Part shown: positions 3,965-46,837 of the stretch, piece by piece | Layout: every line of letters begins with the position of its first letter | Numbering within the stretch: the first letter of the stretch is position 1 | Source: a virus | Reading direction: 5' to 3' (one strand) | Virus record (IMG/VR): IMGVR_UViG_3300022221_000006 | Location: 1 to 64,000 of that record | Length of the DNA stretch: 64,000 nucleotides | Notes under the pieces: generated by a model | The model's database searches: none | Told to the model about the DNA's origin: nothing | Seen by the model: the letters and a program-made list of their open reading frames with translations, nothing else | Translations under genes and position numbers: made by a program

Positions 3965-4059
3965 CTCCTGATCACCTTTACGGTGGTTGGGAGGTAACCC
4001 TTTATTTTTTCTTCTCCTGATCACCTTCGTGGTGGTTGGGAGTCTAACCTTTATTTTTT
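3965..4059 (+). terminator. tandemly duplicated terminator (two ~46-bp copies)
   Basis: CTCCTGATCACC-loop-GGTGGTTGGGAG...CTTTATTTTTT at 3965-4010 and 4014-4059. Confidence 0.75.
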
Positions 4060-4067
4060 GATTTTAT

Positions 4068-4082
4068 CCCGTTAAATTAACC
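4068..4082 (+). promoter_or_regulatory. putative phage-RNAP late promoter (class L), upstream of terminase
   Basis: CCCGTTAAATTAACC, repeated at 20626 and 41843, immediately after a double terminator. Confidence 0.65.
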
Positions 4083-4412
4083 TAGAATAGGTTCCTTGAA
4101 GGGTATATATGGAACATTCCCGTGAGGGATCCTAGGGAGGGTCTTTAGGGATCCTCTTAGAGATACCTTTAGATACCCTTTTAATACTCCCCTATATTCT
4201 ATTATTATTAATAGATAACAACAGTGATAGATGATCCCCTAAAGGATAGTATAGGGGGATATTTTTCTCCTTCAAAGGGGAGGGCACAGGGGATAATTCA
4301 ACGGGGTCTTTTTATTCGGAGACTAACACGAACTCTAAGATTTCCAAGCGCGTCTGGGAGTCAACTTCAAACATTATCCCTCAAAATTCAATTTTAAAGG
4401 TATTTACAAGAT

Positions 4413-4871: not shown

Positions 4872-5034
4872 AGCTAAGGGTATCATGTATTGTCCTATCT
4901 GTGAATCAAACCTTGTGGCTACTAACTTTCAAGAAGTTGAAGAAGGTGAGCACGATGGCTATATCTATGTACATGATGCAAACACGGTTCACACTGATGA
5001 AGATTTAGAAGCACTTGAGAATGGTGTCCAGTGA
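4855..5034 (+). CDS. small putative metal-binding protein (59 aa, not in ORF track)
   Basis: MMTKTKAKGIMYCPICESNL...HDG..YVHD...H; stop overlaps the TerL start (GTGA). Confidence 0.55.
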   Translation: MMTKTKAKGIMYCPICESNLVATNFQEVEEGEHDGYIYVHDANTVHTDEDLEALENGVQ

Positions 5035-7212: not shown

Positions 7213-7749
7213 ATGACGGTTGTTCTGAAGATATCTCAAAGTGATATCGCTACATCTGTTGAGAAACAAGAATTGTCAGCAGGTTACACAGAACAAGCTG
7301 TCACAGTTGAGGCCCTAGGGAAAGACCTATCGGGAGTAGAGGAGAGATTCTCTCCCGATATAGCCATTGAGAAGGTCGAGAGAAAGAATGTAGATACGCC
7401 TTTGCAAGTCTCTCCTGCTCTAGAAGGTAGTAATATTCCTCAAGAGATGACAGCAGATGTAGCTACAAAGGAATCTGTTCAGACGATCCCAAAAGGGAAG
7501 CCTGTTATGGTTATCAGCACACCAACACGCGACAATACATTTGTCGAAAAAAGCCTTGCTGAAATAAGCCTCGATAAATCTATTATTTACGAGCACAATT
7601 TAGATCTTCCTGTTGCAGGAGAAATCACTGCTAACAGTGAGACAACAGATGTTATTATAAATGGTTCTGGTATCAGAAAACAAGGGAAGTATGATTCATA
7701 CGCAGTACAGGGATATGTGAAAGACGAATACTGGAGAATTAATAGATGA
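7213..7749 (+). CDS. hypothetical protein (late module)
   Basis: 178-aa ORF translationally coupled to the tail fibre gene. Confidence 0.6.
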   Translation: MTVVLKISQSDIATSVEKQELSAGYTEQAVTVEALGKDLSGVEERFSPDIAIEKVERKNVDTPLQVSPALEGSNIPQEMTADVATKESVQTIPKGKPVMVISTPTRDNTFVEKSLAEISLDKSIIYEHNLDLPVAGEITANSETTDVIINGSGIRKQGKYDSYAVQGYVKDEYWRINR

Positions 7750-10700: not shown

Positions 10701-11987
10701 GCTACAAAATCATGGACAAATTATAGTTATCCAACTACTGCTGATACACTCAGTATTGCACAAGATACGTTAATTTCATTTGCTGAAGGATTTAGCGCAG
10801 TTGGTCAAACAGATACTCAGGAGAATGTCGGTGCAGGTGTAACTCATACGCTTGGTGTCGGGCATGAAAATAAACACTACTATATCTACAAAGATAAAGC
10901 TGGCGCATTCGGTGTTACCGAGAATCGACCACTGGAAGACTCTGATAAGTGGGGTGATAGATCACCATCTGATGCTACCTTACGTACTACCTCAAGGCAT
11001 TTTGATTACGAGAGTGATACAGGAGTTGTGTTAGCAAGTGGCGAAAACTCTACTAACTATGCGTATAATGCATTTAATAAAGATATAAATGACATTATTA
11101 CAGTAGGTAGTTACTGGCAAATTGCGTCCTCTACAATATCTTGGTTACAGTACAAGCAAACCGAGAAACGAATTCTCAAATCATGGAGAATAAAAGCACA
11201 TGGAGACTCTACCGAATTACCTTCACGACTAATCATCCAAGGCTCAAATGATGGTCTTAATTGGATTAATATTGATACTACGTATTCAGCTTCTAATTAC
11301 GTTGGGAGTCTGCTTAATTTGTGGGGAGATCTGCAATCTACTGCAGACAATACTGTAGCCTATTTATACCATAGAATTTATATCACAGCTAATAACGGTG
11401 ATCCTACATATACAGGTTTTAGTGAGTTAGAATTTAACACTATTCTCCCATCAGATCGTTTTGATGTAGCTGAAGGTGTACTTTATAACTCTGCTGGTTC
11501 TCCTATTGCTAGAACTTATCTCGCTGAGTTCCGTACTGATGACAATGGCGGCGTAATTAATAATACAATCCGTAACTTTACTCCAGCTAAGCAAAAATTC
11601 ACTGAAGCTGAGATTCAAGGGAAGTTAAAAGTTCATGATGAAATTGAGAATAGGGGTATCTGTACGGCATGGGTGAACTTCGATGGTACTCAGAATCCTC
11701 CTTTGATACTGGATAGTTACAATGTAAGCGATGTAGTTGATTTAGGTGTTGGAGCTTACAAAATTATATTTGAAACTCCGATGGATTTACCTGCTTATAC
11801 AGTCGCTGGTTACGCACAACATGCGGAGAGTGTTACAGATTCTAGTTTCAATATACGTGGTTACGGGAATTCTATCACTAAACAGTCTGTGACTGTTCAA
11901 TCAACTGTGGTAAACGAGACATCATCTGCGAGAACTGATTTAGGCGCAGTATGTGTATCTATATTTGGAGGTAAGAAAATACTATGA
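7746..11987 (+). CDS. tail fibre / receptor-binding protein (1413 aa)
   Basis: N-terminal EIDANFTNLN; Gly/Asn N.AIG..AL beta-roll repeats; internal duplication; discoidin-like segment; C-terminal AWVNFDG...SYNV fibre domain. Confidence 0.85.
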   Translation: MTDILTRAAKGDLLEHFEIDANFTNLNNDKIETSLLGLTEGKIPLLGPGGLFPESVFSSVGGLFTEDASNNIVGGTGSGASLTTGTYNFFAGSNAGNLLQSGRDNIAIGYRSLSVNLVNNNNVAIGSAALRFATGAALTALGPYAGNKISSGSNSIAIGWAALGQIDATSASITGSGNVGMGLYAVGGLSTNPTTLHTNLGVGNYALSDLQTGGFNTGLGTQTLETITTGLGNTAIGDRAGRNLTSSSSYNVMIGFRAGPGTGANVHNKLYIHNNVSSTPLIYGDFAISKITINGDFDVTGAFTSLGIDDNATGERLQIADTLSSFGASGVFYGLIHPANDQGITIAGGNAPAKGGNIELGGGTHVSIAGDIRIRSGANSVFTWDESLGSLTLSTGAGVKTTALTINASQRATFSGDVRLSGDTPTLSINDVVSVSDTAMQTYISLQRAGAEKGWLGFGSGANTHLSIVNNLGEIRLSSNGVTALTLDASQDATFAGAVTVQGVFTSLGIDDNASSERLQIADGDIVLGGWHDANYTVKRGIDNRILIFEGGVTSAGSARLLLYGATETTGAGDFALKSGFNTVCLWDESAGALTLSTGAGAKTAALTLDASQNATFAGTVDGRDVAADGAVLDSLVVTSAPNIPARNAVLNKEPVSQGESTRTGMSSTIYTGTSSANPVASGIDMATGEFGGLVWIKSRNTVSNHALFDTVRGTTLELKSNSSGVEVINSDALTAFTSTGFSLGADANVNSIGNTYIAWSWQTNKKITGVTNRNKSYTCHYNPDMGFSIVSYVGDGVAGHEIPHHLGVSPELSIFKNITSSNNWILQGKDIGNSESGDYILLNATNTLTNTTSVKSIFTEETVSLGIASYNTSGVSNIAYHFSSVEGVSKVGKYIGTGAIGNYVECGFTPAFVMIKNITTAEDWQVLDVIRGGGNLLQANTTSAEQSVVLLTINAQGFILLGSGGTNKLNDEYIFLAFSLATSDATKSWTNYSYPTTADTLSIAQDTLISFAEGFSAVGQTDTQENVGAGVTHTLGVGHENKHYYIYKDKAGAFGVTENRPLEDSDKWGDRSPSDATLRTTSRHFDYESDTGVVLASGENSTNYAYNAFNKDINDIITVGSYWQIASSTISWLQYKQTEKRILKSWRIKAHGDSTELPSRLIIQGSNDGLNWINIDTTYSASNYVGSLLNLWGDLQSTADNTVAYLYHRIYITANNGDPTYTGFSELEFNTILPSDRFDVAEGVLYNSAGSPIARTYLAEFRTDDNGGVINNTIRNFTPAKQKFTEAEIQGKLKVHDEIENRGICTAWVNFDGTQNPPLILDSYNVSDVVDLGVGAYKIIFETPMDLPAYTVAGYAQHAESVTDSSFNIRGYGNSITKQSVTVQSTVVNETSSARTDLGAVCVSIFGGKKIL

Positions 11988-13830: not shown

Positions 13831-14004
13831 ATGAGTGCAGAACCATTAACTGTAAATGACTGTGAATTAATTGTACAGTTATTAGATCGAGTATCTATTA
13901 CAGGACATCAAGAACGAGCGGCTATGAATCAAACAGTCGACAAGATCTTACGTCTTCGAGAGAGTCTAGCAAATCCTCCCGAAATCCCTGATCCCGACGC
14001 CTAA
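13831..14004 (+). CDS. small hypothetical protein
   Basis: ATG 13831, 57 aa. Confidence 0.45.
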   Translation: MSAEPLTVNDCELIVQLLDRVSITGHQERAAMNQTVDKILRLRESLANPPEIPDPDA

Positions 14005-14070
14005 AAGGGGGTGATCAAAATCTACTGTGGAGAGGCCTCTCCATCTCTTTAACAAACCAGGATTATTTAA

Positions 14071-14394
14071 ATGTCTGAACAAAAAGTAGCAATGCCGCAA
14101 GGTAAAATAAATCTAGAGGTGTCTACCTCTGATGAAAGTGACGTATCGCAGAAAGAGTCTAGCGATGCAATGAAGGCAATGGAAGCGCTGGAAGAAGCGA
14201 AAGCAGCAGAAGCAAAGGCAATTGAAGAAGCAGCTGCCAATGCGGAACCCTTCACAAGCTCTTTAGATCGAATCCCTTCGAATTGGCATATTGTCGCAGG
14301 TAAGTACAAGAAGACTGTCGATGCCACCAACGAAGTCACAGGTAATACCTTCAGTGGTCCTATCCGTGAATTTAATGCCAAGCTAAGAGGTTAA
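14071..14394 (+). CDS. hypothetical protein upstream of portal
   Basis: AGGA RBS, 107 aa, Ala/Glu-rich. Confidence 0.65.
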   Translation: MSEQKVAMPQGKINLEVSTSDESDVSQKESSDAMKAMEALEEAKAAEAKAIEEAAANAEPFTSSLDRIPSNWHIVAGKYKKTVDATNEVTGNTFSGPIREFNAKLRG

Positions 14395-14398
14395 TCAA

Positions 14399-16009
14399 AT
14401 GACTGTAGCAAACGCCGCTGATGTCACCAGAACAGTAGCAGATCCTAACGCTGAATACCTATCAATGCGTGATATATGGGATCGAAACAGGGCTGTATGC
14501 GGCGGCGAGCGCTACGTAAAGGCCTTAGATCAACGCTTAAGTCCTAGCATGCAAAACATGCTTATTCCTTTTTCCCCATCTATGACGCAGCCTCAATATG
14601 ACTTCTATCGTTTAGAGGCTGAGTTACCTGGGATTGTGTCTCAATTTTCAAAGATGTTGGTAGGAGGTCTTCTGCGCAAGACCCCTGTACTAACTCTACC
14701 TGACGACATGCCTGAAGGTGTCCGTGAGGAGGCTCACGACTGGATCATGAATAGCTTCACCCAGGACAATTCATCAATCACATCCTTTCTAGACACCGCC
14801 TTGTGGGAAGAGATTCAAACAGGACGTGCCTGGGTATATGTAGATTATCCTTTTGTTGAAGATGCAGATTCACTTACAAATGCAGACTTCAGAGAACTTG
14901 CTCCATTTCCTATCCTATGGAAGCCTGAAGAGATTGTGAACTGGAAACTTGGAAAGGATGAGAAAGGAAATGCAGTCCTAAAACAGATCATTGTACGGAC
15001 ACTAGTCGAACAGTATGGTGATACTGAAGACACTGAATTTCATCCTACATTTAAAGATACAGTTTATGTTCATGAACTCGACAGCGTCGGATATTATCAG
15101 ATTCGCGTATTCGAAAGAGCTGATGATGTACAAGACGCACCGGTCGTTAATGGAAATCCCTACAAGAAACAATCCGATAGTAAGGTGGCTTTTCCTCTTG
15201 TAGACACGATCACTGGGATCAAAGCAAATGGCGAACGTTTGACACGAATCCCTGCATGGCCTCTTAATGGTAGCATGAAGATTACTGATCCAATCATTTC
15301 CGCTATCGTAGACAAAGAAATCAGTCTATATAATAAAATCAGTCGCCGTAATCACTTACTATATGGTGCTGCTACATACACTCCTGTGATATTCTCCGAC
15401 ATGGGTGAAAAAGAGTTCGACGAAATTGTAGCGAGTGGACTGGGAAGTTGGCTGCGGTTACCTATGGAGGCTAAAGTAGAGGTTCTAAAGACTCCTACAG
15501 ATGCTCTGAAAGATATGGAGAAAGCGATTGCAAGTGCTATTGAAGAGATGGCACGCTTAGGGATTCGTATGTTAAGTCCTGAGACTGCTCAATCAGGGAT
15601 TGCTCTTGAGATTCGGAATGCTGCCCAGACTGCTCAGCTAGGCTCCTTAAATAACAAGGTGTCTGCGATCATGTCTAAGATTATTGCTTTTATGCTGAAT
15701 TGGCGGTATGATTTAGAATTGACAGATTCTGATGTTGAATTTGACCTTTCATCTGACTTTAATCCCATCCCACTAGGTGCTGACTGGATTAGACTAGCAA
15801 CAGAATGGTATGAGAACGGTCTACTTCCACGTAGCGTTTGGCTTCAGATTCTGAAACAGAATGACATTGTCTCTCCTGACTATGATGATGAAGACGGTCA
15901 GACAGAGATTATTGAAGACGACCTGATACAAGGTCAGGCGAAGGCCGAAAATGAAGATATCCAAGATCAACTTGACAAAGAACTGGAAGATGAAGATTTA
16001 GATGCCTAA
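14399..16009 (+). CDS. portal protein (DUF4055-like)
   Basis: 536 aa; GRAWVYVDYP, PEEIVNW, acidic C-terminus; position before MuF/scaffold/capsid. Confidence 0.85.
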   Translation: MTVANAADVTRTVADPNAEYLSMRDIWDRNRAVCGGERYVKALDQRLSPSMQNMLIPFSPSMTQPQYDFYRLEAELPGIVSQFSKMLVGGLLRKTPVLTLPDDMPEGVREEAHDWIMNSFTQDNSSITSFLDTALWEEIQTGRAWVYVDYPFVEDADSLTNADFRELAPFPILWKPEEIVNWKLGKDEKGNAVLKQIIVRTLVEQYGDTEDTEFHPTFKDTVYVHELDSVGYYQIRVFERADDVQDAPVVNGNPYKKQSDSKVAFPLVDTITGIKANGERLTRIPAWPLNGSMKITDPIISAIVDKEISLYNKISRRNHLLYGAATYTPVIFSDMGEKEFDEIVASGLGSWLRLPMEAKVEVLKTPTDALKDMEKAIASAIEEMARLGIRMLSPETAQSGIALEIRNAAQTAQLGSLNNKVSAIMSKIIAFMLNWRYDLELTDSDVEFDLSSDFNPIPLGADWIRLATEWYENGLLPRSVWLQILKQNDIVSPDYDDEDGQTEIIEDDLIQGQAKAENEDIQDQLDKELEDEDLDA

Positions 16010-19000
16010 TGTAAATACAGCGATCTATGATGGTAAAGTAGATCGCGCTGCTATGCTACGCCTGTACGAACAGAATACCCATGGAAAGATAGAAGCTGTC
16101 TTTGATGGTCATGTAGTTCGTCTAGATAAGCTAGTGAAGAAGTCTAAAATTAATTCAAAGACTTTCAAAGACTTTCAAAAGAATCTTGATATCGAATTGA
16201 AGAAGACCTACAAGGAAGCCTTTAGTGTTTCTAAAAGGTCACTGCTTGACATGGCAGCAGATCAAATGTCGTTTACATACCAGAATTTAGATGCTGCATT
16301 AAGTAAGGTGTGGCGCACAAAGAGACCCCAAAGACGTATCTCTGAAGATATTGTCTTAAAACAACCACTCTACGAGAATAGAACTCTTGAGATGGGTTGG
16401 AAAGGGGTCTCTAAAAACGAACGAAAAAGACTTGCGCAAGTGATTCGTAAAGGTATTGCAGACGGTGATACCGAAGAGATCATCGCCAGGAATATCAGAA
16501 GAGGCAATGTTCATAAAATAACCCGTAATCAATCGCGATCGTTAGTGACCACTGCAATGACGAGTGTTAATGCTCAGGTCGATCATAGTGTCTATGTCGA
16601 GAATGAAAAAGCACTTCAGGGTTGGCAGTATGTAGCTGTTCTTGACTCAAGTACTACACAGATATGTGCCTCCCGTGATGGTAAGATATATGGCGTCGAT
16701 GACACAGCGTACCTCCCTCCTGCTCATTGGCAGTGTCGTTCGACAATAATCCCTGTGGTTAAGAAGTGGGAAGATCTTGCAAGTCTAGAGAGCGTTGCTC
16801 AGCTGCGTAGAAGAAATATGGCAAAACTAAGCCCTGCTCAGATAGCTAGATACGATGGCCAGACGCCTCTGAAAGAAACATATAATGCCTGGCTCCTGAG
16901 ACAGCCTTCAAAGATCCAATATACGCATCTAGGTGATTGGCAGAAAGTAGACCTTTTTAACAAAGGGAAGATACATCTTTCTAAATTTACTTCTCCGGAC
17001 GGTAAAACATTAGGGATTCGTCAATTGCGTCGGATGACAGATTCTGAGTATGCACCTCCAACAGGTTCTCAACGTTTTGCATTAGCAAAGGAAAAACTAG
17101 ATGCGATGAATCTTGGTGCTATCTCTCCTGATGATTTTATAAACGACCGTAAGATGACAAACACCCTAAAGAATTTCTACATTCTTCAATCAAAAGAATT
17201 GGACGGTACTTTATCACTTACTAACTATAGAGGAAATCTCATAGGAACAAAGAGAGCACAGAAACGAAGAGTGCTTACAAGACCTCCCAGAGAAGAACAG
17301 GTGATTTTCAATCCGGTCACAGGTCGTTATGAAGATTCAAGAATGTTTCAGCCAACACCTTCTGTTCTCGTGAACAATATGAGGCTTGTGAATGAGAGTA
17401 GTATTCTTAAGGTCGCAGATAAAGAATACATCGATCGTTTTATTGGAAGTCTCTCTGAGTATATGAGTGTAAATGAAAGAGCTGTCGTGGCTGATAATCT
17501 GAGAATTCTCTTCACAAGATATCGAAAGAACCCCGAGAATTGGGTTAACTTTAAAGCCATTTCACAAGCACAGATTAAGTTTGACGTAATGAATGTCTCT
17601 GACACAATCGAGACACAGCTCAGAAGCGATGCGAATCTACTGAAGAAGCTTAAGCAGGATAATTACATTGACCCTGTCCTAGGTCCTGTTACCTTTGAAG
17701 ATCTTGACAAACACTTCATAAGTAATATATTAGAACGTAATAAATGGGAAGATCGTATTGCTCCTAAAATCTCAGAGGAACTCCGTGACGTTTTCGATCA
17801 CAACATACCATTTAAAATACGAAGACGTTTGAGTGATTCAAATTTACAGCAGTTCTATCTAAAATTTGCACATAGACTTTCTCTGGCAGACAGTCCTGAT
17901 GTAGACCAGCTAGCGGCTGCTTTAGGTCGTGATCTGTACAATCTTGCGAACTATAATGGCAATCGTCGACAATGGTATGACCTAGGTAAGAAACTTTTAG
18001 AGTCGAATAATAAATTCTTCGAACTAGAAACCTTTGGAGTTCAGAAAAGACGTATGAAAAGTAGAATGAGTGGTCAGCTATTTGGACCTTATTACGACAC
18101 GTTCTCTTACAACATTCGCATCACAGACCCTCGTATCCAGAGGTATTCTCAGCTAAATAGAAAGATTGAGGTAGGTCTCAGGATCGGTGTCACAGATGTC
18201 GGTAATCGACTGGTCTTTCGAGAAGGTTATAAAACGTACTTCATCAAAAACCGTCTTGGCCTCTACACAGACACTCGGATACCAATTACGTCAACAAGCA
18301 GTTTTATGGACTTTCCAGAAGGTCTTATAGACAAAGAAATGGCCGCATCTTTGAACTGGGCAGCTAAGACTGAGTATCGAATCGATGAGGACTTCTACGA
18401 CTCGATCATGCATATAATGAACTTCACAGACGATAAAGGTAAGGCAAAATACTTCGATGATATAAACGAGTACCGTAAATATATAGCAGCTAGAGGTGAT
18501 GCGTATGAAAGATTTAAAGCGATGGAGTGGTTTCGTAAGAGAGGAGTTGCTTTTAGTAATCATCCTTTTGTTGACCACCGTGTGCGTATCTATGACCGTG
18601 GCTTTATCGGTCCTCAGTCTGGTGAAACTTTTAGACCTTTCCTGAATACTGCCAAGGAGAAAGTCTTAGGCATCGATAACTTTAGAAATCTGCAAGATCA
18701 AATTGGAGCTTTCTTAGGAGGTCTCGATGACTATTTTGAAGGTCGTTATAACTCTCTAAGTGTGACAGGGCGACAGAAGATTGCAATAAAATGGCGTAAA
18801 GAGCTGGTTACTATTGGAAATCATATGATACGAAATAAGCCAAATGATGTCCGTAAGATTCTTCAGTCAGACATGGTGGCTAGAATCGAAGGTGAAGAAT
18901 TAGGTAAGTTTCTCAGATTCGCAATTGAAGTTGCTAAGATAGATAATTATCTAGACGGTGTCTATAACAAAACCTCTCTTCAAAAGCTTTCTAAATACAA

Positions 19001-20621
19001 GACAGCTCTCGCTCTTGAACAAGACGCATCGTCTTCAGGTGCCCAGATCATTGCGCTAACCACACGAAATAAGCAATTAGCAGAGCTTAGTAATGTTGTC
19101 CCTACAAACCAGAAACGACGACTCTACGACGAAATAGCAGCTGCCACGTTCAACGATCCAGCGTTTAGAAAACTAAATGAGAAGTTTGGACTTACTGAGA
19201 AAGATTTACGCAAGGCTGCGAAGGCTCAGAACATGGTAACCTTTTATGGAGCAGGAGAGAAGACAGGGATTCTGAACGTTGAAGGTAAATTGGCAAAAGT
19301 TCTTGAGAGACAACCTGGTACTCTCGTTGTGAAGGCCTCTGATCGCGACGTTGTCCTCAGTGAGATATCAGCACGCATTGCTCGTTATGAACGCTTTGAT
19401 CCTGCTATTGCTGAAGAATTGAAAGTCCTTAGAAGCAATGTACGTGACATATTCAACAAAGGTCTTCATGTAGGGGATGACATCATGGAAGACTTATATT
19501 TCTTGGACCCCGCGACCAAAGATCTGGTGTTACAAATGACGCAAAACTACACAAAGGTCGTAACCCCTGATGATTTTCGGCAGATTGCTAAGATTATGAG
19601 TATGCATCTTGGCGAACAGGTTCCTATCTTGAAAGACTTTACAAAATATTTAGGGCGACTGGGTGAAGACTTTCTCATCAACGCTAAACCTTCTAAGAGT
19701 AGTTTTTCCTGGAAAGGTATTTTAAAGGAGCGGTTATTTGGTTCATCCCGTGATGGTTATAAGCTGTCGAAAGAAACCAGTAAGCTTCTGGGACTCCCTG
19801 CAAACACAGCTATCTCAAAGCAGATTCTGAGTAAGTTTGGCTTCTGGCGTCCTAATGGAACTCTCAGCCAGCTACTCTATGGAGTAAAGGATCCAGGAGA
19901 TCGCAGAATAGGAGCTAAGTATTTCAAGATTCAAATAACAAAATTTAAGAAAATCTTTTCAATCGAAGTTTTCAAAGCCAACAGATTGCCTAAAAGGTGG
20001 ACAAACATCCCCTGGAAGAACTTCGATGGGAAGACAATTGAGCAGAACTTTACGCAGACCTTCGAAGAGCGTCTGTTGTATAGAGATAAGGACGGTAACT
20101 GGGTTACGAATATTCTTCAAGTACCTCAAAAGACGCAGGCGACTTGGTGGGAACAAATTCTCAATGATGCAGGAAATATTGACGATATTGCTGATGCTAC
20201 AAAGGCTAGAACTGCCTATGCTGTAAATGGGAATCACTCCAATGATGCTGTGATTGTCAAGCGATTCCATTTGTGGGGTAAGTCTGAAGATGTTCCTACT
20301 TCTACAATTCATGACGCTTTCTTTACTAATATCGCGGATATGTTAAAAGCACGGTCGGCTCTGCGTAAAATATATGCTGATGCTATGAAAACAAATGTTA
20401 TAAAAGCAACTCTAGATGAGATGTTAGCGAGAGGTCTCCCTCGTGCACTTTATGACAAGTATTTGAATGAAGCCATTGAAATAGGCCTTATCCCTGTACC
20501 AGGAAGGTCTCGAGTAGGCGGCAAGCTACTAAAAGATACCGACATATTAAACTCTGAAGACATCTTAAAGAAGGTTAATGAAGTCTTTCAGGAAGATGCT
20601 TATTGGTACGGCGTGGGGTAA
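16002..20621 (+). CDS. MuF (SPP1 gp7-like) minor head protein fused to a T7/N4-superfamily single-subunit RNA polymerase
   Basis: N-terminal GWQYVAVLDSSTTQICASRDG...PPAHWQCRS (MuF); C-terminal DHRVRIY, motif A EQDASSSGAQ, motif B RKAAKAQNMVTFYG, NGNHSNDA, motif C TIHDAF. Confidence 0.9.
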   Translation: MPNVNTAIYDGKVDRAAMLRLYEQNTHGKIEAVFDGHVVRLDKLVKKSKINSKTFKDFQKNLDIELKKTYKEAFSVSKRSLLDMAADQMSFTYQNLDAALSKVWRTKRPQRRISEDIVLKQPLYENRTLEMGWKGVSKNERKRLAQVIRKGIADGDTEEIIARNIRRGNVHKITRNQSRSLVTTAMTSVNAQVDHSVYVENEKALQGWQYVAVLDSSTTQICASRDGKIYGVDDTAYLPPAHWQCRSTIIPVVKKWEDLASLESVAQLRRRNMAKLSPAQIARYDGQTPLKETYNAWLLRQPSKIQYTHLGDWQKVDLFNKGKIHLSKFTSPDGKTLGIRQLRRMTDSEYAPPTGSQRFALAKEKLDAMNLGAISPDDFINDRKMTNTLKNFYILQSKELDGTLSLTNYRGNLIGTKRAQKRRVLTRPPREEQVIFNPVTGRYEDSRMFQPTPSVLVNNMRLVNESSILKVADKEYIDRFIGSLSEYMSVNERAVVADNLRILFTRYRKNPENWVNFKAISQAQIKFDVMNVSDTIETQLRSDANLLKKLKQDNYIDPVLGPVTFEDLDKHFISNILERNKWEDRIAPKISEELRDVFDHNIPFKIRRRLSDSNLQQFYLKFAHRLSLADSPDVDQLAAALGRDLYNLANYNGNRRQWYDLGKKLLESNNKFFELETFGVQKRRMKSRMSGQLFGPYYDTFSYNIRITDPRIQRYSQLNRKIEVGLRIGVTDVGNRLVFREGYKTYFIKNRLGLYTDTRIPITSTSSFMDFPEGLIDKEMAASLNWAAKTEYRIDEDFYDSIMHIMNFTDDKGKAKYFDDINEYRKYIAARGDAYERFKAMEWFRKRGVAFSNHPFVDHRVRIYDRGFIGPQSGETFRPFLNTAKEKVLGIDNFRNLQDQIGAFLGGLDDYFEGRYNSLSVTGRQKIAIKWRKELVTIGNHMIRNKPNDVRKILQSDMVARIEGEELGKFLRFAIEVAKIDNYLDGVYNKTSLQKLSKYKTALALEQDASSSGAQIIALTTRNKQLAELSNVVPTNQKRRLYDEIAAATFNDPAFRKLNEKFGLTEKDLRKAAKAQNMVTFYGAGEKTGILNVEGKLAKVLERQPGTLVVKASDRDVVLSEISARIARYERFDPAIAEELKVLRSNVRDIFNKGLHVGDDIMEDLYFLDPATKDLVLQMTQNYTKVVTPDDFRQIAKIMSMHLGEQVPILKDFTKYLGRLGEDFLINAKPSKSSFSWKGILKERLFGSSRDGYKLSKETSKLLGLPANTAISKQILSKFGFWRPNGTLSQLLYGVKDPGDRRIGAKYFKIQITKFKKIFSIEVFKANRLPKRWTNIPWKNFDGKTIEQNFTQTFEERLLYRDKDGNWVTNILQVPQKTQATWWEQILNDAGNIDDIADATKARTAYAVNGNHSNDAVIVKRFHLWGKSEDVPTSTIHDAFFTNIADMLKARSALRKIYADAMKTNVIKATLDEMLARGLPRALYDKYLNEAIEIGLIPVPGRSRVGGKLLKDTDILNSEDILKKVNEVFQEDAYWYGVG

Positions 20622-20625
20622 TAGA

Positions 20626-20646
20626 ACCCCGTTAAATTAACCCTGT
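20626..20646 (+). promoter_or_regulatory. putative late promoter (class L), upstream of scaffold/capsid
   Basis: ACCCCGTTAAATTAACCCTGT. Confidence 0.7.
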
Positions 20647-20725
20647 TATTTAGTGTAACAAGAGTCTTAACAATTAAACGTGTTGCTGTGCGACACATAA
20701 ATGAGCTGTGCTCAGGAAAAGAAAG

Positions 20726-21412
20726 ATGCCAGATGAAGATGACGATACCAAAATCAAGGATCCCAAGAAAATTGTGGTCGGTGATACTGATGAAGCGACA
20801 AAGCTTCTCATCGCCCAACAGATTCAAGATGGGATTGCTGAGTCTTTAAAACCTATCAAGGAAAATCTTGATAAGGCGTATAAGGCTAAAGAAGAAGCTG
20901 AGGCCCGTGCTCTAGAGCTGGAAAATAAGCAGAAAGAACGCGAGCTTAAAGATTTGGAAGAAGCAGGAAAGCACAAAGAAGTTTACGAACAACGTCTTGC
21001 TGATAAGGAAAAAGAACTGGAAGACACCGCCCAGACTATGAAGTCTTTGGCTCAAAAGAACATCGAACTGACGAGAGATATTGAAGTTCGAAATGCTCTG
21101 CGAGAGTTTGACTTTAGAAACGCCAATGCTAGTGATATGGCATTTCGAGAAGTCATAGGAAGTCTTACACAGAACTCCTCTGGAACATGGGTAGACGGTC
21201 AAGGTAGATCTGTCCTGGAAGTTGTTAAAGGTTTCGTTGATAACGAGACAAATGCTTTTCTTCTTAAACCGAAATCATCATCAGGCTCCGGCACACAACA
21301 CGGGGACGAAACTCCACCTGCCATTACGAAGACAGATTCTCTCTTCGGGATGAAGCAGGCGGATGTACTAAAACTAGCCTCTGAGGGTAAACTACCCAGA
21401 ACGAGGCGCTAA
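20726..21412 (+). CDS. capsid scaffolding protein
   Basis: charged coiled coil, SSGSG linker, located directly before the major capsid gene. Confidence 0.8.
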   Translation: MPDEDDDTKIKDPKKIVVGDTDEATKLLIAQQIQDGIAESLKPIKENLDKAYKAKEEAEARALELENKQKERELKDLEEAGKHKEVYEQRLADKEKELEDTAQTMKSLAQKNIELTRDIEVRNALREFDFRNANASDMAFREVIGSLTQNSSGTWVDGQGRSVLEVVKGFVDNETNAFLLKPKSSSGSGTQHGDETPPAITKTDSLFGMKQADVLKLASEGKLPRTRR

Positions 21413-21427
21413 TAGAGGCAATTTTAA

Positions 21428-22645
21428 ATGCGTACTGACATACGAGTTAATGATACTGGTGGTTACACACCTTACGTTCTACAAGAAACTATCGGAGCCT
21501 ACTCTGACGAGGCATACACCAATGCCCGTAAGTTATCAGGAACCGATATCGTCCAGGGCGATCCTGATATCGATACTGATGGTGAGACCTATATTGGTCA
21601 AATGCGATGGTTCACCCCATTAAATCCTGTTGTTAATGTTGCATCTCTGACTGATGCGACCAATGGTACTCCTACCACTTACGGTTCACAGTTCTTGCAA
21701 TATGTGAAATCGGCTCGTACACACGGTGCTGAGAAAGTTAACCTTTCAAAGATTGTCACTCAAGACGACGGTCTGGCAAAAGTAGGTCGTGATCTGGGTG
21801 AAACTCGTGCACAAGATGAGCATGATGCAATCCTGGCTATTCTGAAAGGCGTAGCCATCTCTGAGCTTATGTACGGTGCTGCTCAGGCTACCGGCGCTTC
21901 AGGTCTTGGTGGTCAGTCATTCTCAAATGACCCTTCCGATAATGCTTATGGCTTCTATGTCGATTTAGGTGCAAGCAAGGTTGTTACTGATGCAGCTGCT
22001 GCTAATATTGGTGCACAACGAGCTGCTGGCTTTCTGAATGCCTTTGGTCAAGCATATAAGGACCATGAGCCTGAGTACGCATACCTCGTTGCCAGTCCTG
22101 CTGTTATGGCTTCACTGCGCTCTGCTAATCTGGTAGATTCTGATCGTGTCACTGACGGTAATGTTGAGTTCAACACTATCTTCCAGGGCAAGTTCCGATT
22201 GATCCAGACTCGTGCTACCCAGTCATTGACTGCAGCTGAACGAGCAATGTTTGCAGCCACTTCTGTAGCGTCTGAAGGTGTCGATATTGTCGGCACGTTA
22301 ACTTCGTATATCGTACTGCCTGGTGCTCTTGCAATGGAGCCTTTGACTATCGATGAAGACGTTGAGATCGAACGAGCAGCTGCTGCCTACCAAGGTGGTG
22401 GTACTACTCAAATATGGTATCGTTGGGGTTACATCCTACATCCTGCTGGTTACAACTGGGCAGGTTCTCAGGATGCATTTCCTACCAATGCAAATTACCA
22501 GCAAATCACTGACGGAACTACTCCTGTAGCTGTTGACTCTATCGGTGCTGCTACCGTGAATGGCCTTGACGGCTTCACTGGTGTATGGCAGCGTAAGACA
22601 AGCTCAGCTCTGTCTCTGGGTATCCTCCCAGTCTTCCACTCTTAA
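21428..22645 (+). CDS. major capsid protein
   Basis: 405 aa, follows scaffold; VEIER...GGG...WYRWGY..HP.GY.W coat-protein pattern. Confidence 0.85.
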   Translation: MRTDIRVNDTGGYTPYVLQETIGAYSDEAYTNARKLSGTDIVQGDPDIDTDGETYIGQMRWFTPLNPVVNVASLTDATNGTPTTYGSQFLQYVKSARTHGAEKVNLSKIVTQDDGLAKVGRDLGETRAQDEHDAILAILKGVAISELMYGAAQATGASGLGGQSFSNDPSDNAYGFYVDLGASKVVTDAAAANIGAQRAAGFLNAFGQAYKDHEPEYAYLVASPAVMASLRSANLVDSDRVTDGNVEFNTIFQGKFRLIQTRATQSLTAAERAMFAATSVASEGVDIVGTLTSYIVLPGALAMEPLTIDEDVEIERAAAAYQGGGTTQIWYRWGYILHPAGYNWAGSQDAFPTNANYQQITDGTTPVAVDSIGAATVNGLDGFTGVWQRKTSSALSLGILPVFHS

Positions 22646-40820: not shown

Positions 40821-40862
40821 TGCGCCATATGTGGTATCTTATATGAATAGGAATAATCCTAT
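40821..40862 (+). promoter_or_regulatory. putative phage-RNAP early promoter (class E), copy 1
   Basis: TGCGC-N7-GGTATCTTATATGAATAGGAATAATCCTAT; the 30-mer is identical at 42949 and 43365. Confidence 0.75.
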
Positions 40863-40884: not shown

Positions 40885-41169
40885 ATGAAATATTTAATTA
40901 TAATAATAGCTCTACTAACAACCCCCGCGTTTGCCTGTAATTCTCATGATACTAATGGGTATATATGGATTGGGGCTGGACTTCATGACAGTCCACACGA
41001 TGTAGCATTTGGAAAAGAGATAGCAGAGTGGGGTGTGAGCTTCAATTTACACCAGATCAGTCCTATCAACAGCCTCCGTTTCATCCTTAAGCACGATTCA
41101 GGGATATGGACGAGGGAGAGAGACTATGGCTACAACACTGCAACCTTCAGGCTACAAGCTAACTTCTAA
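40885..41169 (+). CDS. small secreted beta-strand protein, putative outer-membrane protein
   Basis: GGAG RBS, signal peptide MKYLIIIIALLTTPAFA, H-x-S...G-x-N segment, C-terminal Phe. Confidence 0.65.
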   Translation: MKYLIIIIALLTTPAFACNSHDTNGYIWIGAGLHDSPHDVAFGKEIAEWGVSFNLHQISPINSLRFILKHDSGIWTRERDYGYNTATFRLQANF

Positions 41170-41842: not shown

Positions 41843-41863
41843 ACCCCGTTAAATTATCCCTGT
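41843..41863 (+). promoter_or_regulatory. putative late promoter (class L), upstream of lysis genes
   Basis: ACCCCGTTAAATTATCCCTGT, 20/21 identical to the 20626 copy. Confidence 0.7.
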
Positions 41864-42936: not shown

Positions 42937-42978
42937 TGCGCAAAAATGGGTATCTTATATGAATAGGAATAATCCTAT
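42937..42978 (+). promoter_or_regulatory. putative early promoter (class E), copy 2
   Basis: TGCGC-N7-GGTATCTTATATGAATAGGAATAATCCTAT, then CACAACAA..GAGGT RBS. Confidence 0.75.
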
Positions 42979-43352: not shown

Positions 43353-43394
43353 TGCGCAAAAACAGGTATCTTATATGAATAGGAATAATCCTAT
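43353..43394 (+). promoter_or_regulatory. putative early promoter (class E), copy 3
   Basis: same motif, preceded by hairpin TACGGGG...CCCCGTA. Confidence 0.75.
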
Positions 43395-44515: not shown

Positions 44516-44581
44516 TAAAATTTATAGTGGGTCTATATTTGATATCGTTAATCCCAAAGGTTATTGAGAAAATTGAAAGCT

Positions 44582-46837
44582 ATGATAAAACAAAAGATAA
44601 TTCTGACAACAACAAAAAGGATAGCAAAGGAAATTGCACCACAAAACCCCCTAATATATCTAAAAGAACATGATGTCGAAAAGTATATTAATGAATTAAT
44701 CTCGACAGTCTATCTGTTCACACGCCCTAAGAAGGGTTCATCGGACCCTCTCTATATGGTTGAAATTATATCGGCTATCGGACATCGGGTCAGAGGAAAG
44801 TTAGGACTTAGAAAAGACTCAGCGTTAGCAGCTAAAACAGGAGCGTTTCTTTTATATACATTCGAAGTACTTAATATCATCCATGTTATCCTTGGAGCTG
44901 GTAGACGTGGACATAATGCGTACATTGTAGATGTTTTGGACGATGCTACGATAAATGAACTATGGAAGGAGCTAGGTGACCGCGAGATCGAGAAGTTACC
45001 TGCGCTACAGCCGCATCAGGATTGGAAGCATTCAAGGCATCCTACAGGAATGCTTATGGTAAAAACAGGATGTAAAGAGACACTTGAATCACTAACACCT
45101 CAAACACATCCTATCGTCTTCAACGTCCTGAACAGAGCTCAACAAGTAGGTTGGCGAATAAATACGGAGATTCATCACTTACAACAATGGGCACTAAAGT
45201 ACAAAACAGTCGCCTTTGCAGATATATGGGAACAACAAAACCCTGAAGCGCGTGCTACAAAATTAAGAGAGGCTCGATCTATTGACTCGATTGCGAGTAA
45301 ATACCTAGGGACAACCTTCTATCATCTCTATTACTATGACTTCAGAGGTCGTAAGTATGCAGCCACTGCTTATCTACACGAACAAGGAAGTGATGTAGCG
45401 AAAGGTCTCTTGCTCAGAGATGATAAGAAGCGAATAGGAAAAGAAGGATTTTTCTGGCTACTTGTGAGTATCGCCTCTAACTGGGGCGGTGAGAGTGGTC
45501 GTGAAGATGGATTGAAAACAGATAAAATACCTCTTGAAGAAAGGTATCAATGGGCGCTCGCAAATGAGGATATTTTATTGTCCTACGCGAAATCACCTAA
45601 AGTGAATCAGGGATGGATGAAAGCTGATAAGCCCTGGCAATTTATAGCAGCGTGTTTTGAGCTAAGGTCTTGTTACCGATGGGCTAAGTATGACCATACT
45701 AAGCATGATCACCTAAAGGAGGAAATCTATGAATATGAGTCTCATCTTGAGTGCTTTATTGATGGTAGTAACAATGGCTCTCAGCATCTATGTGCGCTTA
45801 CACGCGACGAAGTTACGGCTCCTCACGTTAATCTTGTGCCACTTGATTATCCTGGGGACCTCTATAAATATGTTGCAGATCATGTTTGGGACAGCTTAGA
45901 GGCTCAAGTTAATCTCCTGACAGAAGCTGAAGTTGAAATTTGTGAAAAGTTCATAGATGATCTGGTCGTGCACAAAAAGCGAATAAACAGTGCGCCCCGT
46001 GGTAGCGAAATCAAAAGGCTCCTTGTGGATAAGATACGAAAGTTTAAGGAGGAACATGGACTTTTAATGGTGCTTGTAGCTCCTGTATTTTGGTTTAGAA
46101 TCCAGGATGCTAAGGAGAAACGTAAGATTGTGAAGAGAAACACAATGACGCTTCCCTATGGCGGAACACCCTATGGACTTGGACAACAGATCATTGATGA
46201 TGCTAAGAAACATGGGATTGAACAACTCCTATATATGGAACATAGCTGGGGCGCTTTCTTAGGAAGAGAAGTATTTAAAAACTGCCAGGAAGCTCTTAAA
46301 CGACCTATGCAACTCCTTGATATCTTTGAGAAGGCAGGGAAGCTAGCAGAAGCCGAAGAGAGATTCTTAAAATGGACTGTACCAATAACAAACTTCCCGG
46401 TAGTGCAGCACTACACGGAAGGTCGTGTGAAGAAGATATGGGTTCAGTACGGACCGCCTAAAGGAACCAGAAATTCAACAGGTTACTTTACAAACACCTT
46501 ACAATTGCATATTTGCTTTGTAGAAGATCCACAACCATCGAAGCGCAAACAAGCACAGGGAGCTTCTCCTAATGCCATTCACAGCCTAGATGCAGCACAC
46601 TTAATGCTTACAGTAGATGAGGCACCTTTTCCAATAACAACTGTTCATGATTCTTTTGGATGTTTGTTAGCTGATATGCCTGAACTGTACAAACTAATAC
46701 GTGAAACATTCGTAGAACTCCATGAGGTCAATCCACTCTATTCATTGTTTGAACAGATAGGAGGCGACATCTCAGACGTTGATCTGGGGAATCTTGATAT
46801 CAATTTGATACTTGATTCAGAATATTGTTTTTCATAG
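44582..46837 (+). CDS. T7-like single-subunit DNA-directed RNA polymerase (stand-alone)
   Basis: DFRGRKY, KPWQF.A, motif A DGSNNGSQH, motif B RKIVKRNTMTLPYG, PNAIHSLDAAHL, motif C VHDSFG. Confidence 0.95.
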   Translation: MIKQKIILTTTKRIAKEIAPQNPLIYLKEHDVEKYINELISTVYLFTRPKKGSSDPLYMVEIISAIGHRVRGKLGLRKDSALAAKTGAFLLYTFEVLNIIHVILGAGRRGHNAYIVDVLDDATINELWKELGDREIEKLPALQPHQDWKHSRHPTGMLMVKTGCKETLESLTPQTHPIVFNVLNRAQQVGWRINTEIHHLQQWALKYKTVAFADIWEQQNPEARATKLREARSIDSIASKYLGTTFYHLYYYDFRGRKYAATAYLHEQGSDVAKGLLLRDDKKRIGKEGFFWLLVSIASNWGGESGREDGLKTDKIPLEERYQWALANEDILLSYAKSPKVNQGWMKADKPWQFIAACFELRSCYRWAKYDHTKHDHLKEEIYEYESHLECFIDGSNNGSQHLCALTRDEVTAPHVNLVPLDYPGDLYKYVADHVWDSLEAQVNLLTEAEVEICEKFIDDLVVHKKRINSAPRGSEIKRLLVDKIRKFKEEHGLLMVLVAPVFWFRIQDAKEKRKIVKRNTMTLPYGGTPYGLGQQIIDDAKKHGIEQLLYMEHSWGAFLGREVFKNCQEALKRPMQLLDIFEKAGKLAEAEERFLKWTVPITNFPVVQHYTEGRVKKIWVQYGPPKGTRNSTGYFTNTLQLHICFVEDPQPSKRKQAQGASPNAIHSLDAAHLMLTVDEAPFPITTVHDSFGCLLADMPELYKLIRETFVELHEVNPLYSLFEQIGGDISDVDLGNLDINLILDSEYCFS

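What the first reader, a model, noticed from the sequence alone, without database searches (positions are those of the whole stretch)
16002..20621. MuF minor head protein fused to a complete single-subunit RNA polymerase: candidate virion-packaged RNAP in a siphovirus
Seen: the gene between portal and scaffold has an N-terminal MuF/SPP1-gp7 domain (GWQYVAVLD...C..RDG, PPAHWQCRS, ~16620-16745). About 1290 aa follow, ending in T7-superfamily RNAP motifs with the catalytic Asp residues intact (EQDASSSGAQ ~19020; RKAAKAQNMVTFYG ~19210; TIHDAF ~20305). Known: SPP1 gp7 binds portal and DNA and is incorporated into heads in few copies; MuF proteins often carry C-terminal toxin/effector domains; N4-like podophages inject a virion RNAP, but theirs is not a MuF fusion. 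Inference: MuF serves as a packaging and ejection tag that delivers an RNAP with the DNA, allowing host-independent early transcription. I cannot confirm that this fusion is undescribed.
Basis: partly seen in the sequence, partly recalled or inferred. Interest (0 to 1): 0.95.

Follow-up and report, generated by a model that had tools for sequence, protein, structure and literature searches.

The report
Head protein fused to RNA polymerase
A long-tailed sediment phage joins its only portal-associated minor head protein (MuF) to a complete, apparently active T7-type RNA polymerase, so it probably carries its own transcription enzyme in the capsid to start infection; hundreds of uncultured phages and the cultured Naomviridae share this design, and I found no paper describing it.

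Summary
ORF 16002-20621 (1539 aa) has a MuF/SPP1-gp7 module at aa 1-347 (Pfam E 4.9e-13) and a short disordered linker. A helical connector follows, then a full T7/mitochondrial-type single-subunit RNAP at aa ~565-1539. The AF2 model has pLDDT 84 and matches T7 RNAP residues 36-883 at Z 29. Motifs A, B and C are intact and conserved in relatives of 20-66% identity.

The fusion is not an artefact. At least 449 protein clusters carry PF04233+PF00940, including cultured roseophages DSS3_VP1/PM1 and EBPR siphovirus 1, where a group I intron splits motif B. All are annotated only as head morphogenesis or minor capsid proteins.

The context fits an N4-like polymerase relay:
- The gene overlaps the portal stop codon in the late operon.
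- It is the only MuF on the phage contig.
- A second, stand-alone T7-like RNAP (44564-46837) is present in 8/8 near-complete relatives.
- A rare promoter-like element (1-3 copies per genome) sits upstream of that second RNAP in 7/7 genomes examined.

Packaging, ejection, activity and promoter assignment are inferred, not shown. I found no paper on a MuF-RNAP fusion. This scan noted the same architecture in other genomes. Verdict: a new variant of a known kind (virion RNAP), of high interest.

The parts
16002..20621 (+). MuF-RNAP fusion gene, 1539 aa. Its ATG overlaps the portal stop codon by 8 nt.
16002..17042 (+). MuF / SPP1 gp7-like head module, aa 1-347. The Pfam Phage_Mu_F core is aa 144-250 (nt 16431-16751).
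   Evidence: Pfam E 4.9e-13. phrog_241 E 1.9e-55. Invariant LD..T..C / PP.H.CRS signature in 24/24 relatives. AF2 model pLDDT 86.
17043..17066 (+). Flexible linker, aa 348-355. It is the only stretch with pLDDT below 50 in the N-terminal model.
17067..17693 (+). Helical connector, aa 356-564, with no family assignment. It is conserved in the fusion family.
   Evidence: VIA alignment to N4 mini-vRNAP starts at model residue ~32.
17694..20618 (+). Complete T7/mitochondrial-type single-subunit RNA polymerase module, aa ~565-1539.
   Evidence: Foldseek E ~1e-17 to mtRNAP and T7 RNAP. VIA Z 29.4 to T7 RNAP residues 36-883. Pfam RNA_pol.
18570..18593 (+). T/DxxGR-like motif VDHRVRIY, aligned to T7 MDWRGRVY. 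Gly is replaced by Val here.
19017..19046 (+). Motif A EQDASSSGAQ. Catalytic Asp1008 is invariant in 24/24 relatives.
19209..19250 (+). Motif B RKAAKAQNMVTFYG. It follows the T7 pattern R-x3-K-x3-M-x3-YG, and K1074 is invariant.
20304..20321 (+). Motif C TIHDAF with catalytic Asp1438, aligned to T7 IHDSF.
14399..16009 (+). Portal protein gene, the presumed docking partner. It lies directly upstream of the fusion in 40/40 related loci.
44564..46837 (+). Second, stand-alone T7-like RNAP (757 aa), the candidate non-virion polymerase.
   Evidence: Pfam RNA_pol E 1.5e-67. 27% identity to T7 RNAP, E 2e-55. Homologue present in 8/8 near-complete relatives.
40821..40862 (+). Class E promoter-like element, copy 1: TGCGC-N7-GGTATCTTATATGAATAGGAATAATCCTAT.
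42937..42978 (+). Class E element, copy 2.
43353..43394 (+). Class E element, copy 3, the last one before the second RNAP gene.
20626..20646 (+). Class L element CCCGTTAAATTAACC, 5 nt after the fusion's stop codon and ahead of the scaffold and capsid genes. Other copies are at 4066, 41843 and contig position 68040.

Best explanation
The gene encodes a capsid-internal virion RNA polymerase. The N-terminal MuF/gp7 module (aa 1-347) docks on the portal during procapsid assembly, so a few copies of the whole protein are enclosed in the head. This step is inferred from SPP1 gp7. A short flexible linker and a helical connector tether a complete T7-type single-subunit RNAP (aa ~565-1539). The gene is made late, from the head operon, so the enzyme can only serve the next infection. 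It would leave the capsid with the DNA (inferred). It would then transcribe the few early units headed by the class E element (three copies at 40.8-43.4 kb). Those units run into the gene for a second, free T7-like RNAP (44564-46837), which would take over middle and late transcription, for example from the class L elements. Shown here: the architecture, the fold, the intact and conserved catalytic motifs, the gene order, the co-occurrence with the second RNAP, and the rare conserved promoter-like element. Inferred: packaging, ejection, activity, and which polymerase reads which element.
For: (1) Domains and fold are established.
(2) The active site is under purifying selection. Motif A Asp, motif B Lys..Tyr-Gly and motif C Asp are kept across relatives only 20-66% identical.
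(3) The fusion is a conserved family. All 24 full-length representatives have Phage_Mu_F and 19 of 24 have RNA_pol. At least 449 clusters at 90% identity carry PF04233+PF00940, and at least 80 IMG/VR loci encode it. The cultured siphoviruses DSS3_VP1/PM1 have it in the same slot: portal, fusion, scaffold, capsid.
(4) In EBPR siphovirus 1 the gene is split exactly inside motif B. The insertion scores as a group I intron (Rfam 40.5 bits, under the family's 50-bit gathering score; E 1.2e-8) and carries an HNH endonuclease gene. The frame resumes at TFYGAG. This is typical of homing into essential catalytic sites.
(5) The gene is placed among late genes. Its ATG overlaps the portal stop, portal is directly upstream in 40/40 loci, and it is the only MuF on the contig.
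(6) A second RNAP is present in 8/8 near-complete relatives. It is not a recent duplicate, since BLASTP between the two gives only E ~1e-3.
(7) The class E element occurs exactly 3 times in 74 kb against 0.05 expected by chance. Its core is conserved in 7/7 genomes examined, at 1-3 copies each, on the forward strand only, and always upstream of the second RNAP. Sigma-70-like sites are not enriched in the early region: 20 found against 16.3 +/- 3.8 in shuffles.
(8) There are precedents. SPP1 gp7 is targeted to the procapsid interior by the portal in a few copies and supports initiation of infection, and C-terminal toxins are thought to ride on gp7-like proteins (PMC6316719; PMC5576092). A MuF homologue was found in siphovirus ZC01 virions by mass spectrometry (PMC11619397). 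In siphovirus P23-45 a virion RNAP fused to the tape measure protein transcribes pre-early genes, including the gene for the non-virion RNAP (PMC10770324).
Against: No member of the family has virion proteomics, rifampicin or in vitro data in the papers I could read. Exit of MuF proteins from the capsid with the DNA is proposed, not demonstrated, in what I read. A folded RNAP of about 110 kDa would have to pass the portal and tail channel unfolded. The window's T/DxxGR motif has Val in place of the canonical Gly. The class E element contains TATAAT-like or TATGAA-like hexamers that a host sigma-70 polymerase might use. A hairpin followed by a T-run (44310-44365) lies between the E-headed small genes and the second RNAP gene.
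Confidence: 0.62

Rival explanations
1. The protein is packaged as above, but the RNAP's main task is to drive or complete genome entry. Transcription would pull the DNA into the cell, as T7 RNAP and N4 vRNAP do for part of their genomes. Making early mRNA would be secondary.
For: The same structural and context evidence applies. The authors of the P23-45 study hypothesise coupling of vRNAP transcription to DNA translocation (PMC10770324). SPP1 virions lacking gp7 are defective at the start of infection (PMC6316719).
Against: This rival does not exclude early mRNA synthesis; the two roles would normally coincide. The class E elements sit before coding units that lead to the second RNAP, which argues for productive transcription.
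Confidence: 0.12
2. The RNAP is not delivered to the next cell. The polyprotein is cleaved, or the RNAP acts only in the producing cell, for example as a late polymerase recruited near assembling heads. Only the MuF part, or nothing, ends up in virions. Early genes are read by the host polymerase from the class E elements.
For: Class E elements contain -10-like hexamers: TATAAT in DSS3_VP1, G004 and G005, and TATGAA/TATGAT in the window and G001. A disordered linker follows the MuF module at aa 348-355 and could be a cleavage site. There is no direct virion evidence.
Against: The upstream conserved block lies 13-14 nt from TATAAT/TATATG, too close for a -35 element. The conserved G[CT]ATCT block lies where sigma-70 reads nothing. 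The element is conserved between phages with presumably different hosts. A free T7-like RNAP already exists for intracellular transcription in 8/8 relatives. Stable fusion across at least 449 clusters is hard to explain if the two halves work apart.
Confidence: 0.13
3. The polymerase module is delivered but primes DNA replication or makes a non-coding RNA, as in transcription-primed origin firing, rather than transcribing early genes.
For: The T7 family of enzymes can prime replication (my own knowledge of T7 and mitochondrial systems). The enzyme would arrive together with the DNA.
Against: The phage has its own primase/helicase (59002-60741, phrog_239 E 1.9e-128). The rare conserved elements precede coding units, not the replication genes.
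Confidence: 0.05
4. The RNAP module is a catalytically dead structural passenger, or the fusion is an assembly artefact.
For: The T/DxxGR motif carries a Gly-to-Val change.
Against: Catalytic residues are invariant across a deeply diverged family. A homing intron sits in motif B of a relative. The same fusion is in complete genomes of cultured phages and in hundreds of independent contigs. An independent assembly of the run covers 14000-22000 without any difference.
Confidence: 0.03

Closest known systems
Coliphage N4 virion RNA polymerase gp50 and the N4 polymerase relay (Schitoviridae)
   Same: It is a right-handed single-subunit RNAP carried in the capsid as part of a larger polypeptide. 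It is made late and is used for a handful of early promoters. It is followed by a second phage RNAP of the T7 family.
   Different: N4 gp50 is about 3,500 aa and sits in a podovirus. Its own N- and C-terminal regions serve injection and encapsidation, and it has no MuF domain (PMC5512222). The present module is structurally nearer to T7 and mitochondrial RNAP (Z 29.4) than to N4 mini-vRNAP (Z 19.3), and phrog_2166 'N4-like RNAP' scores only E 0.0012. A hairpin like those in N4 promoters is present in the window's class E copies but not in those of relatives.
Thermus phage P23-45 tape-measure-fused virion RNAP plus non-virion RNAP gp64
   Same: It is a siphovirus. Its virion RNAP is fused to a structural protein. 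That RNAP transcribes pre-early genes, including the gene for a second, non-virion RNAP (PMC10770324).
   Different: The P23-45 enzymes are two-barrel polymerases related to cellular RNAP, and the carrier is the tape measure protein in the tail. Here the enzymes are T7-type and the carrier is a portal-associated head protein.
MuF (SPP1 gp7 / Mu gpF) proteins with C-terminal effector domains (MuF polymorphic toxins, polyvalent proteins)
   Same: An N-terminal MuF module is encoded next to portal, with a C-terminal enzymatic cargo thought to be packaged and delivered at infection (PMC5576092; PMC5512222; PMC6316719).
   Different: The described cargoes are toxins or small effectors such as ADP-ribosyltransferases, RNases and RelA/SpoT, mostly in temperate phages. 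Neither survey mentions an RNA polymerase cargo. Iyer et al. state that N4-like virion RNAP modules occur only in N4-like phages.
T7 RNA polymerase (Autographiviridae gene 1) and mitochondrial RNAPs
   Same: The fold matches over the whole length of T7 RNAP. The T/DxxGR-like motif and motifs A, B and C are present.
   Different: T7 RNAP is a free early protein made by the host polymerase and is not a virion component. The present module has about 180 extra residues between motifs B and C, partly of low confidence (aa 1238-1328). It is fused behind about 565 aa of head protein and connector.

Membership tests
MuF / SPP1 gp7 minor head protein (Pfam PF04233) | Phage_Mu_F domain scoring above Pfam's gathering score | tested here: met
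   50.3 bits against a cut-off of 29.6, E 4.9e-13, aa 144-250. phrog_241 E 1.9e-55 over aa 2-408.
MuF / SPP1 gp7 minor head protein (Pfam PF04233) | Gene directly downstream of the portal gene in the head module | tested here: met
   The ATG overlaps the portal stop. The order is the same in DSS3_VP1 and in 40/40 related loci.
MuF / SPP1 gp7 minor head protein (Pfam PF04233) | Binds the portal and is present in the capsid in a few copies | not testable with these tools
   This needs virion mass spectrometry, pull-down or cryo-EM.
T7-like single-subunit RNA polymerase (Pfam PF00940) | RNA_pol domain scoring above Pfam's gathering score | tested here: met
   34.5 bits against a cut-off of 22, E 1.4e-8. 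19 of 24 relatives match, best E 1e-25.
T7-like single-subunit RNA polymerase (Pfam PF00940) | Catalytic Asp of motif A and motif C; Lys, Tyr and Gly of motif B | tested here: met
   D1008, K1074, Y1082-G1083 and H1437-D1438 align to T7 D537, K631, Y639-G640 and H811-D812. They are invariant or nearly so in the family.
T7-like single-subunit RNA polymerase (Pfam PF00940) | T/DxxGR motif | tested here: inconclusive
   The window has DHRVR and its closest relatives DHRAR. Most of the family has the canonical DxRGR. Asp and both Arg are kept; Gly is replaced.
T7-like single-subunit RNA polymerase (Pfam PF00940) | Full-length fold, including the N-terminal domain, palm, fingers and thumb | tested here: met
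   VIA Z 29.4, rmsd 3.3 A over 526 residues, model 170-1140 against T7 36-883. Foldseek E ~1e-17, probability 1.00.
T7-like single-subunit RNA polymerase (Pfam PF00940) | DNA-dependent RNA synthesis from a specific promoter | not testable with these tools
   This needs purified protein and templates carrying the class E and class L elements.
N4-like virion RNA polymerase (Schitoviridae gp50) | Giant polypeptide of about 3,500 aa with a central mini-vRNAP and N4-type flanking regions | tested here: not met
   The protein is 1539 aa with a MuF N-terminus. phrog_2166 scores E 0.0012 only. The fold is nearer to T7 than to N4.
Virion RNA polymerase (functional class) | Made late, with a separate non-virion RNAP encoded in the early region | tested here: met
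   By gene position only: the gene lies in the head operon, and a second RNAP is present at 44564-46837 and in 8/8 relatives. Timing of expression was not measured.
Virion RNA polymerase (functional class) | Protein present in purified virions and early transcription independent of the host RNAP | not testable with these tools
   No proteomic or inhibitor data exist for DSS3_VP1/PM1 in PMC8323127 or PMC12697855.

The most novel reading that the evidence does not exclude
Naomviridae and a large uncultured group of related siphoviruses (about 60-80 kb) run a transcription programme that starts without the host polymerase. A T7-type RNAP rides into the cell as cargo of the portal-bound MuF protein. 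It fires 1-3 conserved promoters of about 26 nt and thereby switches on a second, free T7-type RNAP. This would be the first T7-type virion RNAP and the first polymerase cargo of a MuF protein. It would also give a compact enzyme and promoter pair orthogonal to T7.
Probability: 0.55. Interest if true: 0.85.

Novelty: new variant of a known kind. Interest (0 to 1): 0.8.

Why it matters
Virion RNA polymerases are known from N4-like podoviruses, crAss-like phages, jumbo phages and, fused to the tape measure, Thermus phage P23-45. A T7-type enzyme carried by a siphovirus as cargo of the portal-associated MuF protein would be a further, independent solution to the same problem.

It would give MuF a demonstrable delivery role, which so far is only proposed for toxin fusions. 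It would explain how this abundant aquatic, sediment and wastewater phage group, including the dU-DNA Naomviridae, starts infection.

It is directly testable because DSS3_VP1/PM1 and their host Ruegeria pomeroyi DSS-3 are in culture. In public databases these proteins are named only 'head morphogenesis' or 'minor capsid' protein, so the polymerase is invisible to annotation-based surveys. A polymerase module of about 975 aa with a short conserved promoter could also become a useful orthogonal transcription tool.

Tried and rejected
- Megablast of the gene against 50,697 phage records found no match. Only protein-level relatives exist there.
- phmmer of the whole protein against PDB sequences found nothing meaningful. 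The RNAP kinship needed profiles and the fold.
- Complex prediction of portal (536 aa, 31-row alignment) with MuF aa 1-410 gave no verdict: score 0.00 against a mark of 0.32, controls not run. I count this neither for nor against binding.
- Foldseek of the N-terminal model (aa 1-575) against the PDB gave no match at E <= 0.001. The MuF assignment therefore rests on sequence profiles.
- The window's 30-nt class E sequence, with up to 3 mismatches, was not found in five relatives. The conserved core emerged only from per-genome repeat finding and alignment.
- Sequencing runs: one DNA holder, a sediment metagenome that is probably the source. No RNA holder is listed, so nothing can be said about expression.
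- I considered inteins as the cause of longer relatives (1610-1775 aa) and rejected that. The extra residues are domain-like insertions after aa ~984-995 and aa 1106, without intein ends.
- I considered a dU-DNA link as the reason for a virion RNAP. The contig has no dCMP/dCTP deaminase, so the Naomviridae dU pathway is not evident here.
- Six literature searches plus targeted reading of eight papers found no description of a MuF-RNAP fusion (searches; reading). The library lacks most subscription journals, so absence is not proof.

Full report
**What is there.** The window is the first 64 kb of a 74,179-bp contig, C53. It is the longest contig of a 3.0-Mb, 391-contig bin. Its GC content is 42.4%, against 48.8 +/- 3.4% for the bin. 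All substantial ORFs are on the + strand, and the gene content is that of a tailed phage:
- large terminase, 5031-6380
- tail fibre, 7746-11987
- portal, 14399-16009
- scaffold, 20708-21412
- major head protein, 21428-22645
- tape measure protein, 25858-33579
- DNA polymerase, 49080-51137
- primase/helicase, 59002-60741

The one run that holds the sequence is a sediment metagenome, probably the source. An independent assembly of that run covers 14000-22000 in one piece with no differences.

ORF 16002-20621 is uninterrupted and encodes 1539 aa.
- Pfam finds Phage_Mu_F at aa 144-250 (E 4.9e-13) and RNA_pol PF00940 (E 1.4e-8). Both are above their curated cut-offs.
- PHROGs finds 'head morphogenesis' over aa 2-408 (E 1.9e-55) and 'RNA polymerase' (E 3.3e-21).

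**Anatomy.** An AF2 model of aa 1-575 has pLDDT 86.3. Its only disordered stretch is aa 348-355, right after the MuF module. The MuF part has no solved structural relative.

An AF2 model of aa 400-1539 has pLDDT 83.9 and pTM 0.80. Its top matches are yeast and human mitochondrial RNAP and T7 RNAP (Foldseek E ~1e-17). By VIA-align, T7 RNAP residues 36-883 align to model residues 170-1140 at Z 29.4 (rmsd 3.3 A over 526 residues). N4 mini-vRNAP scores Z 19.3.

The protein is therefore built as follows:
- MuF module, aa 1-347
- linker, aa 348-355
- helical connector, aa 356-564
- full T7-type RNAP, aa ~565-1539

There is a long, partly low-confidence insertion between motifs B and C (aa 1238-1328). 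BLASTP against T7 RNAP aligns three motif regions:
- VDHRVRIY with MDWRGRVY
- LALEQDASSSGAQ with LPLAFDGSCSGIQ
- STIHDAFFT with ALIHDSFGT

Motif B, RKAAKAQNMVTFYG, reproduces the T7 pattern R-x3-K-x3-M-x3-YG. The one departure is Val for Gly in T/DxxGR.

**The fusion is a conserved family, not an accident.**
- An exhaustive HMMER search with aa 400-1539 found 164 representative clusters. The full-length members are 1264-2073 aa, and their RNAP part always begins after about 400 residues or more.
- Of 24 full-length representatives (20-66% identical), 24 carry Phage_Mu_F and 19 carry RNA_pol.
- The MuF signature and the catalytic residues D1008 and K1074 are invariant. Y1082, G1083 and D1438 are nearly so.
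- A word-based search found 449 clusters at 90% identity. Nearly all are labelled PF00940+PF04233, on contigs up to 60-90 kb. Their sources name them 'SPP1 gp7 family putative phage head morphogenesis protein' or 'minor capsid protein'.
- IMG/VR holds at least 80 loci.
- In GenBank phages, the full-length relatives are the roseophages DSS3_VP1 and DSS3_PM1 (Naomviridae, siphovirus morphotype, dU-DNA; 29% identity) and EBPR siphovirus 1 (58%).
- In DSS3_VP1 the order is portal, fusion (gp108, 'head morphogenesis'), scaffold-like gene, major head protein.
- In 40 of 40 related loci with upstream DNA, portal sits immediately before the fusion.

**A homing intron in motif B.** In EBPR siphovirus 1 the gene appears as gp47, gp48 (HNH endonuclease) and gp49.
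- The first frame loses homology at ...KAAKAQNMV.
- The frame upstream of gp49 opens right after the gp48 stop and reads TFYGAGERTG....
- Rfam's group I intron model matches at the break over its full length (40.5 bits, below the 50-bit gathering score; E 1.2e-8).

The spliced product is therefore a full-length fusion. Homing elements typically sit in the most conserved sites of essential genes, so this is indirect support for a working active site. Other relatives carry domain-like insertions after aa ~984-995 and aa 1106.

**Context that bears on function.**
1. The fusion's ATG overlaps the portal stop codon by 8 nt. The gene lies inside the head operon, downstream of the class L element at 4066. 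It is therefore almost certainly a late gene, and a polymerase made late can only act early if it travels to the next cell.
2. It is the only MuF on the contig.
3. The phage has a second RNAP of 757 aa at 44564-46837 (Pfam E 1.5e-67; 27% identical to T7 RNAP, E 2e-55). The two polymerases are barely alignable with each other (E ~1e-3). A homologue of the free RNAP is present in 8 of 8 relatives that are at least 83% complete or complete, including DSS3_VP1 gp080. It is missing only from two partial records.
4. Three copies of a 42-nt element lie at 40821, 42937 and 43353: TGCGC-N7-GGTATCTTATATGAATAGGAATAATCCTAT. Each sits in an intergenic gap ahead of small ORFs, and the last is 1.2 kb before the free RNAP gene. 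There are exactly three in 74 kb, against 0.05 expected by chance.

**The element is conserved across the clade.** Per-genome repeat finding and alignment gave the core TG[CA]G[CGA]-AAAA-N5-G[TC]ATCT(T)ATAWT.
- It is present in G001 (2 copies), G002 (2), G004 (2), G005 (2), G008 (1) and DSS3_VP1 (2).
- In the four distant genomes the whole-genome count is 1-2, on the forward strand only.
- These copies always lie 1.8-6.6 kb upstream of the free RNAP.

Read as a sigma-70 promoter, the element is inconsistent. The upstream block lies 13-14 nt from TATAAT/TATATG, and the conserved G[TC]ATCT has no sigma-70 counterpart. Sigma-70-like sites are not enriched in the early region. Its shape, a long conserved block ending in (T)ATAWT followed by a purine, resembles T7-family promoters; this is my own comparison.

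The free RNAP gene lies downstream of these elements with no other repeated motif in between. Whoever reads them first cannot be the free RNAP, which leaves the host enzyme or the virion enzyme. I favour the virion enzyme, at about 55%.

**A second element.** CCCGTTAAATTAWCC stands before the packaging, capsid and lysis units and one further unit. It is exact in the two closest relatives (5 and 4 forward copies) and absent from the distant ones. It is a candidate promoter for the free RNAP. I did not test that assignment.

**Mechanism.** The best reading is a capsid-carried RNAP.
- SPP1 gp7 is targeted into the procapsid by a strong interaction with the portal, in a few copies. It supports initiation of infection, and C-terminal toxins are thought to ride on gp7-like proteins (PMC6316719; PMC5576092).
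- A MuF homologue that matches this protein was detected in virions of siphovirus ZC01 (PMC11619397).
- N4 and P23-45 show that very large polymerase fusions can be delivered and that a virion RNAP can switch on a second phage RNAP (PMC5512222; PMC10770324).

Packaging, exit, activity and promoter choice are all inferred here.

**Known or new.** The surveys of MuF cargoes and of polyvalent proteins do not list a polymerase cargo. One of them states that N4-like virion RNAP modules occur only in N4-like phages. The two Naomviridae papers I read never mention an RNA polymerase. Six full-text searches found nothing on such a fusion.

The sequences themselves are public but mislabelled. I therefore class this as a new variant of a known kind: virion RNAP combined with MuF-cargo logic. 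Earlier agents of this scan reached the same reading on related phages in other genomes. That is not independent evidence.

Noticed in passing
window 44564-46837: A stand-alone T7-like RNAP of 757 aa, shorter than T7 RNAP at the N-terminus and ending ...EYCFS where T7 ends ...DFAFA. In relatives G002, G003 and G006 its gene is split into two or three pieces with stop codons between them, suggesting further mobile insertions.
   Followed up: partly
window 4066-4086, 20626-20646, 41843-41863, 50563-50583; contig C53 ~68040: Class L element CCCGTTAAATTAWCC stands ahead of the packaging, capsid and lysis units and one more unit. It often follows terminator-like hairpins, for example the tandem pair at 3965-4059. 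It is exact in relatives G001 (5 copies) and G002 (4 copies), all on the forward strand, and absent from distant relatives. It is a candidate promoter of the free RNAP.
   Followed up: partly
window 48361-48396, 51486-51521, ~51690-51725, 56367-56402: Four intergenic copies of a variable hairpin followed by CCGG-AAAAGTAA-CCG(G) lie in the replication block. They could be a third regulatory class: a middle promoter, a terminator or a processing site.
   Followed up: no
window 56853-57488: An HD-domain protein of the YfbR-like family (PF12917, E 6e-20). Its best PDB sequence match is DatZ, the dATP triphosphohydrolase of 2-aminoadenine phage S-2L (E 3.8e-5). The dTMP phosphatase of DSS3_VP1 belongs to the same Pfam family.
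   Followed up: partly
contig C53 72901-74064 (L104:8901-10061), outside the window: A short adenylosuccinate-synthetase-like protein of 387 aa (Pfam E 3e-46). It is absent from five relatives, and the contig has no dCMP deaminase. Together with the HD protein this hints at a PurZ/DatZ-type 2-aminoadenine genome rather than dU-DNA. This is untested.
   Followed up: partly
L004 (EBPR siphovirus 1, JF412302) 9176-10036: A group I intron (Rfam 40.5 bits, E 1.2e-8) carrying the HNH endonuclease gp48 is inserted exactly inside RNAP motif B of the MuF-RNAP gene. The deposited annotation shows three separate genes: gp47 'head protein', gp48 and gp49 'hypothetical'.
   Followed up: yes
G000 contig C164 (3216 bp): A second, 66-69% identical MuF-RNAP fragment (aa 712-1539) in the same bin. 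A related phage was therefore present in the same sample.
   Followed up: partly
window 40886-41169: The first gene after class E copy 1 encodes a small protein with a lipoprotein-like signal, MKYLIIIIALLTTPAFAC. It may be an early superinfection-exclusion or envelope protein.
   Followed up: no
window 58982-59041: A perfect 30-nt tandem duplication, TGAGCCACCTAAAAAGGGAGGTGTTGAGGG x2, at the start of the primase/helicase gene.
   Followed up: no
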